Made by a program: the position numbers and the translations under genes. DNA of 64,000 nt from Eledone cirrhosa (Eukaryota): contig OZ024746.1 of assembly GCA_964016885.1 (NCBI GenBank), positions 78,740,001 through 78,804,000 on the forward strand, in the 5' to 3' direction. The notes under the pieces were generated by a model. The model had not been told where the DNA came from, searched no databases, and saw only the letters and a list, made by a program, of their open reading frames with translations. Shown piece by piece: positions 20,772 through 28,127 of this stretch (within the stretch, counting starts at the first letter, position 1; every line of letters begins with the position of its first letter).

Positions 20772-20773
<2 letters not shown>

Positions 20774-20935
20774 CGAAGGAAATGTGGTAAGGAACCAGGT
20801 GGACCATAACGCACCAAAGTACTCAATACTTAGGGTAGTAGAGGTAGAGTGGGTAAGAGGAACGAGTAGGACCCCGACGGCTGAGCTCAAGCCGCGTCAA
20901 CTGCTAATTCAGCCGTCGGGGTCCTACTCGTTCCT
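20772..20935 (-). mobile_element. Family H-A 3' end with a short fold-back, in (TA)n
   Basis: Reverse complement of 27890-28005, plus a short inverted piece at 20910-20935. Confidence 0.75.
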
Positions 20936-21094
20936 ATATATATATATATATAGTTGTGGGTACTAACGAAAGAAAGGAACAGACAACAGATCATGTAGAA
21001 GCAGAGTAATTTGTTTTCACAGTTTGACTTAACTCCGCAGCAGTTTTAAGACGAAAGCACATCTAAATCATAAGTATATACAGTATTTATATAT

Positions 21095-27299: not shown

Positions 27300-27338
<39 letters not shown>

Positions 27339-27341
<3 letters not shown>

Positions 27342-28005
27342 AACAAGTAAGACCCCGACGGCTGAGCTCAAGCCGTTTCGACGGCTAATTCTGGACTGAA
27401 TGAAAATTTATTCTGGTATTTAAATAGCCGAGCTTATCAAGGGGTAATTCCATATATGGTCAAAGAGATAATCACCAGGATTGGTCACATCACAAGTTAG
27501 TAGTAAATCTGTGATGGCAAATTGGTGGGGGAAGGGGTAGCTAAACCTGCCGGTAGGAGAAAAAGGGAGAGGGGGGTGGGGAGTAGACCCACTTACCGTT
27601 TCGACTCCCCCCTCCCCCTCCCCAGTTTCCTCTTTGACCTCACGCCCAGCTGTAGCCGGCACTACCAACGCATGAATGGGTCTACTCCCCCCCTCTCCCC
27701 TTTTCTCCTACCGGCAGGTTTAGCTACCCCTTCCCCCACCAATTTGCCATCACAGATTTACTACTAACTTGTGATGTGACCAATCCTGGTGATTATCTCT
27801 TTGACCATATATGGAATTACCCCTTGATAAGCTCGGCTATTTAAATACCAGAATATATTTTCATTCAGTCCAGAATTAGCCGTCGAAACGGCTTGATCTC
27901 AGCCGTCGGGGTCTTACTTGTTCCTATTACCCACTCTACTACCCTAAGTATTGAGTACTTTGGTGCGTTATGGTCCACCTGGTTCCTTACCACATTTCCT
28001 TCGTT
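27339..28005 (+). mobile_element. Family H-A fold-back element: ~250-bp inverted repeat plus 3' extension, in (TA)n
   Basis: 27339-27591 is the reverse complement of 27677-27926. There is one HHR in each arm. Confidence 0.85.
27819..27912 (+). ncRNA. Type I hammerhead ribozyme with U3:A8 core (antisense twin at 27352-27445)
   Basis: ACCCC-TTGATAA-G..CGGCTA...TAGCCG.C-GAA-ACGGCT loop AGCCGT-C-GGGGT, GUC site. Confidence 0.75.
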
Positions 28006-28127
28006 ATATATATATATATATACACACACACATACACAGAGAGAGAGAAAGAGAGATTTATTTATAGGTACACATTTATATATTCATATAAAGTGTGAAA
28101 TGAATATATGAATATATATACATTTAT

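What the first reader, a model, noticed from the sequence alone, without database searches (positions are those of the whole stretch)
27819..27912. Hammerhead family H-A carries a compensated U3:A8 core (UUGAUAA) and a full stem III
Seen: TTGATAA replaces CTGANGA in three copies (1203, 27434 on minus, 27824). Stem I (ACCCC/GGGGT) is intact in all three, and the 6-bp stem III and GUC site are intact in the two 27-kb copies. Known: positions 3 and 8 form a tertiary Watson-Crick pair, so C3U with G8A is a compensatory double change. Inference: the ribozyme is under selection for activity and would be missed by consensus searches. Further family fragments are at 20772, 32002, 58576 and 62818.
Basis: partly seen in the sequence, partly recalled or inferred. 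Interest (0 to 1): 0.7.

Follow-up and report, generated by a model that had tools for sequence, protein, structure and literature searches.

The report
Penelope hammerhead that survived core mismatch
This hammerhead-shaped RNA motif sits at the end of a very abundant Penelope-type jumping gene; its swapped core pair is already known from such elements, but the lineage likely made over a thousand copies while that pair was mismatched and then restored it, so self-cutting is probably weak, assisted or not needed for every jump.

Summary
Observation confirmed: a type I hammerhead fold with U3-A8 core at 27819-27912, mirrored at 27352-27445. Both are arms of one 5'-truncated, (TA)n-inserted copy of a Penelope-like retrotransposon with Hydra-clade motifs (intact 719-aa RT-endonuclease ORF elsewhere in the genome). 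U3-A8 is in print for Penelope elements (PMC4209133), and this scan noted it before on other repeats of this genome.

Genome-wide, 5,014 of 6,573 exact-pattern copies are U3-A8, but 1,471 are C3.A8 mismatches. Two trees place the window's subfamily inside that mismatched grade (AU p=1.75e-73), so U3 was likely regained. The other 12 core positions stayed fixed across nine subfamilies while 37 of 75 loop and flank columns changed. Stem III is a near-palindrome that can also pair between two RNAs.

Also new here: about 88% of some 54,000 copies begin inside loop II, 14-22 nt before G12, at a conserved initiator-like motif, likely the transcript's 5' end. Cleavage and transcription were not tested; no RNA run was listed.

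The parts
27819..27912 (+). Type I hammerhead fold, U3-A8 core (27824-27830), G12-A14 at 27885-27887, predicted cleavage after C17 at 27907; youngest subfamily (A5)
27352..27445 (-). Second copy of the same hammerhead in the inverted arm; family-typical loop III palindrome; C17 at 27357
27337..28007 (.). Whole insertion: inverted arm 27337-27591 (-, no tail) plus direct arm about 27591-28007 (+, with tail), both pieces of the element's 3' UTR / pseudo-LTR, between (TA)n runs; no ORF
   Evidence: no tblastn hit of the element protein in the window
27888..27906 (+). Stem-loop III; in the family-typical sequence an 18-nt palindrome with one bulged U, able to form a hairpin or a duplex between two RNAs; this copy has a private change at 27897
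27865..27870 (+). Initiator-like motif in loop II; its A (27867) is 18 nt before G12 and marks the zone where most genomic copies begin; candidate transcription start (inferred)
   Evidence: initiator consensus recalled
27928..28007 (+). 80-nt 'tail' present on one arm only; its two ends (20 and 100 nt after C17) are the two 3' ends of the family's copies, likely the two reverse-transcription start sites
   Evidence: PMC11167929 for the interpretation
1198..1293 (+). Older sister family B copy, U3-A8 core, different loop II, decayed stem III and GUU triplet
20772..20937 (.). Head-to-head pair of half ribozymes (3' halves), tail on the minus arm
32002..32195 (.). Head-to-head pair of half ribozymes, each starting 14 nt before G12, tail on the minus arm
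58575..58636 (-). Family B half ribozyme starting 17 nt before G12
62811..62858 (-). Decayed half ribozyme of family B type

Best explanation
This is the pseudo-LTR hammerhead of an abundant Penelope-like retrotransposon with Hydra-clade protein motifs, kept as a fold by selection and likely a slow, dimer- or protein-assisted cutter that is probably not needed for each insertion. Shown: the motif flanks an RT-endonuclease ORF at both ends (unit 3.5-3.6 kb); the window copies are ORF-less truncated inserts in (TA)n; U3-A8 is the usual core, C3.A8 the core of 1,471 copies; copies run through the uncut cleavage site and end 20 or 100 nt beyond it; most begin 14-22 nt before G12. Inferred: transcription likely starts at the initiator-like motif in loop II, so the RNA's 5' end carries only the 3' half of the ribozyme and the complete ribozyme lies at its 3' end; the element's enzyme would nick (TA)n DNA and prime at the two tail ends on uncut RNA; priming near the 5' end would run off after 60-140 nt and give the tens of thousands of half-ribozyme inserts; occasional cleavage, helped by the palindromic stem III or the element protein, would trim or circularise the RNA. 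The master lineage likely went U3-A8 to C3.A8 and back to U3-A8.
For: Element: L034 has hammerhead, tail, ORF, 3' UTR, hammerhead, 3,631 nt apart; L162 has an intact 719-aa ORF with RWR, DKT, YRDD, CxCx5C, YIG, CxxC and CxH, the Hydra hallmarks of PMC8557442 section 11. Selection: across 9 A-lineage subfamily majorities 0 of 12 core, 3 of 32 stem and 0 of 7 loop III columns vary, against 37 of 75 loop II and flank columns, while N7 takes all four bases. With the core left free, U4, G5, A6 and A9 are kept in 99, 98, 100 and 100 of the first 100 listed of 5,623 copies (hand tally). One stem II pair changes on both sides between families A and B. Relaxed 3:8 pair; ladder trees from the ribozyme-proximal region with positions 3 and 8 masked and from the endonuclease region about 1.1 kb away; C3 copies rejected as one clade, p-AU 1.75e-73; the majorities on either side of the reversion differ at position 3 and one loop base only. 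5' boundary: 45,333, 25,357 and 9,873 copies reach 14, 18 and 22 nt before G12; 62 of 72 sampled half copies end at 11-25; family B peaks at 17-18; the A-G-T-Y motif sits at -18 in all 12 majorities. Precedent: an Anolis Penelope hammerhead cuts only with protein, and catalytic mutants insert normally (PMC11167929); D. virilis Penelope has an internal promoter in its pseudo-LTR (PMC2377424).
Against: No cleavage or transcript data. Covariation is thin: the shuffle control does not separate it from chance (53 of 500 shuffles reach the covariation score). For the C3.A8 interval alone the 12 core columns are not significantly more conserved than background (0 of 12 vs 18 of 75, p=0.064; with stems and loop III 1 of 51, p=0.0006; 5' half 0 of 16, p=0.035). 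Subfamily samples came from patterns that fix part of the motif, so some conservation is by construction. The 3' half may be conserved as promoter or protein site, not as ribozyme. The 5' boundary is a zone of 8-10 nt, not one base; only 3 of 30 tail-ORF junction loci show a half ribozyme before the ORF start, against 15 with a full one. [quoted passage not shown] Clade placement rests on motifs, not on a tree with published proteins; Pfam gives no hit.
Confidence: 0.6

Rival explanations
1. One reading: an efficient monomeric ribozyme held under strict selection for activity, the U3-A8 swap being the mark of that selection.
For: All canonical core residues and three stems are present; the 27824 copy folds mainly as a hammerhead (stem III pair probabilities 0.59-0.94); families A and B, about 65% identical in the endonuclease region, both have U3-A8; U3 was regained after the mismatch period, which could reflect selection.
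Against: 1,471 C3.A8 copies, including ORF-bearing ones, and a U3.G8 subfamily. Every copy spans the uncut site. For the family-typical young sequence a competing fold wins by 1.6 kcal/mol and stem III pairs with probability 0.32. The regain is one C-to-T transition, which can happen by chance.
Confidence: 0.15
2. The ribozyme is vestigial as a catalyst; the fold and sequence are kept as a binding or priming scaffold for the element protein and as promoter sequence.
For: The 3:8 pair has been U-A, C.A and U.G in amplified subfamilies; C3.A8 equals the G8A single mutant of the canonical core, and single mutants here had low activity in PMC9901934; catalysis was dispensable for insertion in vitro in PMC11167929.
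Against: U4, G5, A6, A9, G12, A13, A14 and C17 stay fixed while N7 varies freely, the pattern expected of the catalytic core; the 5' core lies upstream of the inferred start site and pairs with the 3' half only in the complete fold.
Confidence: 0.2
3. The pile-up of 5' ends in loop II is a reverse-transcriptase stall or template switch at RNA structure, not the transcript's 5' end.
For: Family A majorities can form an extra 4-7-bp helix in loop II whose 3' strand covers -21 to -15 (folds); the boundary is spread over 8-10 nt; many junctions are fold-back inversions.
Against: The enzyme has already passed the stronger stems I and III; family B has a different loop II in which the motif is unpaired, yet the same boundary; the motif and its spacing are kept in A, B and the distant family C.
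Confidence: 0.3

Closest known systems
Hammerheads of metazoan Penelope-like elements, including the U3-A8 variant of Schistosoma mansoni Cercyon (Cervera and de la Pena 2014, PMC4209133; parts 1-2 of 4 read, supplements not read)
   Same: Type I hammerhead in pseudo-LTRs, short stem I, long stem II, conserved G10.1-C11.1, palindromic helix III region, inverted pairs 100-700 bp apart, U3-A8 core (about 1,300 hits there).
   Different: Helix III is 5-6 bp with a 7-9-nt palindromic loop where those motifs have none or 1-2 bp; loop II is about 37 nt; no extra base between positions 9 and 10.1 but a 2x1 loop after the first pair; an amplified C3.A8 state is not mentioned in the parts read.
Hydra clade of Penelope-like elements, nearest listed Hydra-1_Obim (Craig et al. 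2021, PMC8557442; section 11, passages, supplement files S1, S2 and part of S4 read)
   Same: C-terminal GIY-YIG endonuclease, DKT, RW(K/R), CxCx5C, CxxC and CxH motifs, (TA)n targets, inverted 5'-truncated arm, one-sided tail, hammerhead at the 3' end; N-terminus resembles Hydra-1_Obim by eye.
   Different: All 26 Hydra hammerhead rows of File S2 have C3-G8 and stem III of 3-4 bp; this family has U3-A8 or C3.A8, a 3.5-3.6-kb unit (Hydra generally under 3 kb) and an 80-nt tail (30-40 typical). Its hammerhead differs from that of Hydra-1_Obim.
PAc Poseidon element of Anolis (PMC11167929; passages and second half of the main text read)
   Same: Two fixed 3' ends that define a tail, AT-rich targets, uncut RNA as template.
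   Different: Canonical C3-G8 core and a different clade; there the ORF starts inside the ribozyme, here 200 nt after the core start.
Natural U3-A8 hammerheads (Perreault et al. 2011, PMC3088659; passages read)
   Same: Same compensated core pair, stated there to be active in vitro.
   Different: Scattered examples; no lineage history of the pair in the passages read.
Animal non-LTR retrozymes (PMC7229834 and bioRxiv 10.64898/2026.07.22.740005; passages read)
   Same: Type I hammerheads in dispersed repeats linked to Penelope elements; dimer-assisted cleavage.
   Different: Retrozymes are non-coding tandem units of 170-400 nt; this motif is part of an autonomous protein-coding element and its truncated copies.

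Membership tests
Type I hammerhead ribozyme | Three stems around the core, stem I open | tested here: met
   (93% of 216 cells paired)
Type I hammerhead ribozyme | U4 G5 A6 A9, G12 A13 A14, A15.1-U16.1, H17 | tested here: met
Type I hammerhead ribozyme | Watson-Crick pair between positions 3 and 8 | tested here: met
   U3-A8 in the three window copies; not met in 1,471 C3.A8 copies of the family
Type I hammerhead ribozyme | Score above an Rfam hammerhead gathering threshold | tested here: not met
   no hammerhead hit at E up to 10 in 27340-28005; a natural C3-G8 copy gets 12.9 bits
Type I hammerhead ribozyme | Self-cleavage after position 17; loop I-loop II tertiary contact | not testable with these tools
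   needs in vitro assay; no RNA run listed
Penelope-like elements | Single ORF with RT and GIY-YIG endonuclease between pseudo-LTRs | tested here: met
   by motifs; Pfam and PDB sequence searches gave no significant hit
Penelope-like elements | 5' truncation, inverted arm, one-sided tail, partial tandems | tested here: met
Hydra clade | DKT, CxCx5C linker, CxxC and CxH around E and N, C-terminal endonuclease | tested here: met
   L162 ORF against section 11 of PMC8557442
Hydra clade | RWK motif | tested here: inconclusive
   RWR at the same place
Hydra clade | Insertion into (TA)n | tested here: met
Hydra clade | Placement in the Hydra clade of an RT tree; no IFD | not tested
   published proteins compared by eye only
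Naiad/Chlamys clade | N-terminal endonuclease, DKA, no canonical hammerhead | tested here: not met
   endonuclease is C-terminal, DKT, hammerhead present
Non-LTR retrozyme | Non-coding tandem unit of 170-400 nt | tested here: not met
   unit is 3.5-3.6 kb with an ORF

The most novel reading that the evidence does not exclude
The element starts its transcript inside its own ribozyme, so the hammerhead is split between the two ends of the RNA and can be completed across 3.5 kb or in trans to cut and circularise the RNA; and in this setting the ribozyme still cuts with a C3.A8 mismatch, the natural equivalent of a normally crippling G8A change. The genome then holds a dated natural series of one catalytic tertiary pair (C-G, U-A, U.G, C.A, back to U-A) and some 50,000 run-off copies that map the transcript's 5' end.
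Probability: 0.2. Interest if true: 0.8.

Novelty: new variant of a known kind. Interest (0 to 1): 0.5.

Why it matters
What hammerheads do in Penelope-like elements is open: essential processing step, assisted cutter or passenger. This family offers a natural experiment. Successive master elements with U-A, C.A and U.G at the 3:8 pair each left dated copies, so rates measured for four natural variants on nearly one background can be set against their copy numbers. If the 5' boundary is the transcription start, the half-ribozyme inserts give genomic evidence for internal priming with run-off at the RNA's 5' end, and explain why most copies are invisible to ribozyme searches. The U3-A8 core by itself is known and of modest interest.

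Tried and rejected
Heptamer count alone: at chance. Rfam whole-window scan: dominated by microsatellite miRNA matches, no hit to this family among the 150 listed of 316. Expression: no RNA holder listed; laying two runs of unknown kind gave contigs only and says nothing on transcript ends. Pfam and PDB sequence searches with the ORF: nothing significant. L139 as a C3-G8 control for Rfam was poor because its stem I is damaged; L134 was used instead. A tree on the long 3' UTR was dropped because older subfamilies do not align to the young reference. U3.G8 as the intermediate from C3-G8 to U3-A8: not supported as it stands, because the more distant family B already has U3-A8; an independent gain in B is not excluded. 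C3.A8 as a register shift or indel: rejected, it is a point substitution behind an intact stem I. C3.A8 as the ancestral intermediate: rejected, older subfamilies and family B have U3. Retrozyme and Naiad readings: rejected (membership table). Literature searches for a natural C3.A8 or G8A family or for a start site inside a Penelope hammerhead found nothing relevant, but the library lacks most subscription papers; two relevant papers (Przybilski and Hammann 2007; Lunse et al. 2017) were not held and are known to me only from recall. Earlier scan notes: none similar by sequence.

Full report
1. Observation. The sequence at 27819-27912 reads as a type I hammerhead: stem I ACCCC (27819-27823) with GGGGT (27908-27912); core U3 U4 G5 A6 U7 A8 A9 (27824-27830); G10.1-C11.1, a 2x1 internal loop and a 6-bp helix closing a 37-nt loop II; G12 A13 A14 (27885-27887); a 6-bp stem III; GUC with C17 at 27907. 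A relaxed descriptor scan of the window returned this copy, the minus-strand copy at 27352-27445 and the copy at 1198-1293 among 11 hits. The heptamer alone is at chance (19 seen, 24.2 expected). The predicted fold is the three-way junction (-23.8 kcal/mol, z -0.85). The two 27-kb copies are arms of one inverted repeat. The four further fragments are 3' halves.

2. What it belongs to. The window lies in a 3.0-Gb genome. A DNA search gave 2,168 candidates, of which 40 were scored, all 98-100% identical; many are inverted pairs. In L034 the motif occurs twice in direct orientation, 3,631 nt apart, around a long reading frame and a 1.2-kb 3' UTR. L162 holds an intact 719-aa ORF with RLRWR, DKT, YRDD, CxCx5C, YIG, CxxC and CxH. 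These are the features given for the Hydra clade of Penelope-like elements (PMC8557442 section 11), and the N-terminus resembles Hydra-1_Obim by eye. Pfam and PDB searches gave no significant hit, so the assignment rests on motifs. The window insertion (27337-28007) has the typical form: an inverted 5'-truncated arm, a direct arm with an 80-nt tail that the other arm lacks, (TA)n on both sides, no ORF. It cannot transpose on its own, and its state reflects the master element it was copied from.

3. The core across the genome. With the 3' half fixed and positions 3 and 8 limited to Y and R, 6,573 places match exactly: 1,471 are C3.A8, 88 have G8 (including chance and chimeric matches), leaving 5,014 U3-A8. 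In the narrow subfamily pattern of the window there are 878 U3-A8 matches, 18 with another base at 3 (10 C3.A8, none C3-G8) and 20 with another base at 8, the level expected from decay after insertion. The C3.A8 class is different: it is dispersed, in register behind an intact stem I, has its own diagnostic changes and includes ORF-bearing copies. A small subfamily has G8 in 27 of 29 copies, with U3 in 14 of 15 inspected. A rare, more distant family has C3-G8 in 3 of 5 independent loci, with an adjacent inverted endonuclease fragment 55% identical. All 26 Hydra rows in File S2 of PMC8557442 are C3-G8.

4. Order of events. A tree of 139 copies (of 191 found; 52 lacked enough upstream element sequence) on the ribozyme-proximal region with positions 3 and 8 masked is a ladder: family B and the U3.G8 subfamily, then older U3-A8, then several C3.A8 steps, then young U3-A8 including the window (bootstrap not fully settled). 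A tree of 53 endonuclease-coding stretches about 1.1 kb upstream, rooted on the distant family, gives the same order; young U3-A8 is a 99/98 clade inside C3.A8 rows. After dropping 8 rows (short, decayed, duplicate or sporadic mutants), holding the 17 C3 rows together lowers the log-likelihood by 71.9, p-AU 1.75e-73. Mean divergence from subfamily majorities falls along the ladder from about 8% to 5-7% (C3.A8) to 2.5-3.6% (samples are biased toward best hits). One subfamily holds both states (3 C3, 10 U3) and differs from the main C3.A8 majority only at position 3 and one loop base, which points to a point reversion. So the window's U3-A8 is likely a restored pair, not an unbroken one.

5. Selection. 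Across nine A-lineage majorities, 0 of 12 core columns, 3 of 32 stem columns and 0 of 7 loop III columns vary, against 15 of 37 in loop II and 22 of 38 in the flanks (Fisher p=0.0009 for core, 7e-8 for all structured columns). N7 takes A, C, G and U. Because the samples came from patterns, I reran with the core free: in the first 100 listed of 5,623 matches U4, G5, A6 and A9 are kept in 99, 98, 100 and 100, position 3 is U in 78 and C in 21, position 8 is A in 97 (hand tally); in the first 100 of the 3'-half search no position from C11.1 to C17 deviates in more than 5 (hand tally). During the C3.A8 interval 18 of 75 neutral columns changed, 1 of 51 structured ones (p=0.0006), 0 of 16 in the 5' half (p=0.035) and 0 of 12 core (p=0.064). 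Covariation is weak: two pairs show a change on both sides in 12 representatives, not above the shuffle control. The fold was kept while the 3:8 pair was broken.

6. Stem III. The strand is an 18-nt palindrome with one bulged base; a duplex of two strands is predicted 14-16.5 kcal/mol below two hairpins. The sixth pair exists only in young subfamilies. In the family-typical young sequence the loop III palindrome can pair with the strand after the core, and the hammerhead fold lies 1.6 kcal/mol above that (stem III probability 0.32). The 27824 copy folds better only through its private change at 27897. Older subfamilies and B mostly fold as hammerheads.

7. Where copies begin and end. The 3' half alone matches at 54,110 places, so about 88% of copies lack the 5' core. 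Counts reaching 14, 18 and 22 nt before G12 are 45,333, 25,357 and 9,873. Of 72 half copies, taken from the first 100 listed after leaving out known full copies, 62 end 11-25 nt before G12; in an independent family B sample 12 of 36 end at 17-18 and 33 of 36 at 20 or less. An A at -18 in a pyrimidine-A-G-T-pyrimidine motif is kept in all 12 majorities although loop II differs otherwise; it resembles the initiator consensus (recalled). D. virilis Penelope has an internal promoter in its pseudo-LTR (PMC2377424, passages). The 3' ends fall 20 or 100 nt after C17, as for the two priming sites of the Anolis element (PMC11167929). Since copies span C17, the template was uncut or re-joined there. Among 30 of 397 tail-ORF junctions, 15 have a full ribozyme upstream, 3 a half ribozyme of 15-21 nt before an ORF start, and the rest are rearranged; four-unit head-to-tail arrays of 3,531 and 3,542 nt occur.

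8. Mechanism. Shown: anatomy, counts, copy ends. Inferred: start of transcription in loop II; priming at the tail ends on uncut RNA; run-off at the 5' end giving the half copies; slow cleavage assisted by dimer formation or by the element protein, as shown for the Anolis ribozyme, whose catalytic mutants still insert. Published data on the pair are mixed: covarying 3:8 pairs are said to be active in vitro (PMC3088659), but in one complete scan only C3G/G8C rescued (PMC9901934). I put 0.6 on this reading, 0.15 on an efficient monomer under strict selection and 0.2 on a non-cutting scaffold; a structural stall in place of a start site has about 0.3 as a separate question.

9. Novelty. U3-A8 in Penelope hammerheads is published, with about 1,300 hits in S. 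mansoni (PMC4209133), and this scan noted U3-A8 on two other repeat arrays of this genome (unchecked notes). Rfam misses the motif but nearly misses a natural C3-G8 copy too. Not found in my searches: a Hydra-type element with this core, an amplified C3.A8 state with reversion, or copy starts piled inside the ribozyme. The library is incomplete, and the supplements of PMC4209133, PMC3088659 and the 2026 preprint were not read. Verdict: new variant of a known kind, interest 0.5.

Noticed in passing
window 55843-55914 (-) and 56422-56493 (+): Another inverted pair of hammerheads with canonical C3-G8 core; Rfam HH9 model 38.6 bits, below the gathering score of 52. Probably a different Penelope-like family.
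   Followed up: no
window about 25791 (-), 25435 (-), 20534 (-), 59492 (-), 45420 (+): Five further canonical-core hammerhead-like motifs with short stem III and AT-rich stem I from the descriptor scan.
   Followed up: no
G000:C1:91476610-91487253 and C1:437200357-437210966: Four-unit head-to-tail arrays of the whole element, spacing 3,542-3,543 and 3,531 nt; could come from rolling reverse transcription of a circle or from unequal crossing-over.
   Followed up: no
G000:C440:38331-118050 (L187-L190): Four near-identical copies of the distant family C hammerhead about 26 kb apart, with U3.G8 core; likely a large tandem duplication.
   Followed up: partly
L041:1473-2234, L074, L093, L132, L135, L148: Fragments of other, more distant Hydra-type ORFs (27-43% identical to the element protein; one with RLRWH and DKT) near family copies.
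   Followed up: no
L162, L206, L209, L211, L144, L151, L192 versus L034: The 3' UTR grew along the lineage from about 690 nt in older subfamilies to about 1,150-1,200 nt in younger ones; L162 is a young copy with a 690-nt UTR.
   Followed up: no
subfamily A4 (for example L016:2866-3004, L162): The most frequent subfamily in the listed rows has a C-to-U change in stem III that leaves a G.U pair and a change next to G10.1 that weakens the competing fold.
   Followed up: partly
L009, L023, L034, L044, L077, L095, L133, L199: Ends of an unrelated reverse-transcriptase ORF (RRLRWYGHV motif, LINE-like by recall) recur within 1-3 kb of family copies; may just reflect its abundance.
   Followed up: no
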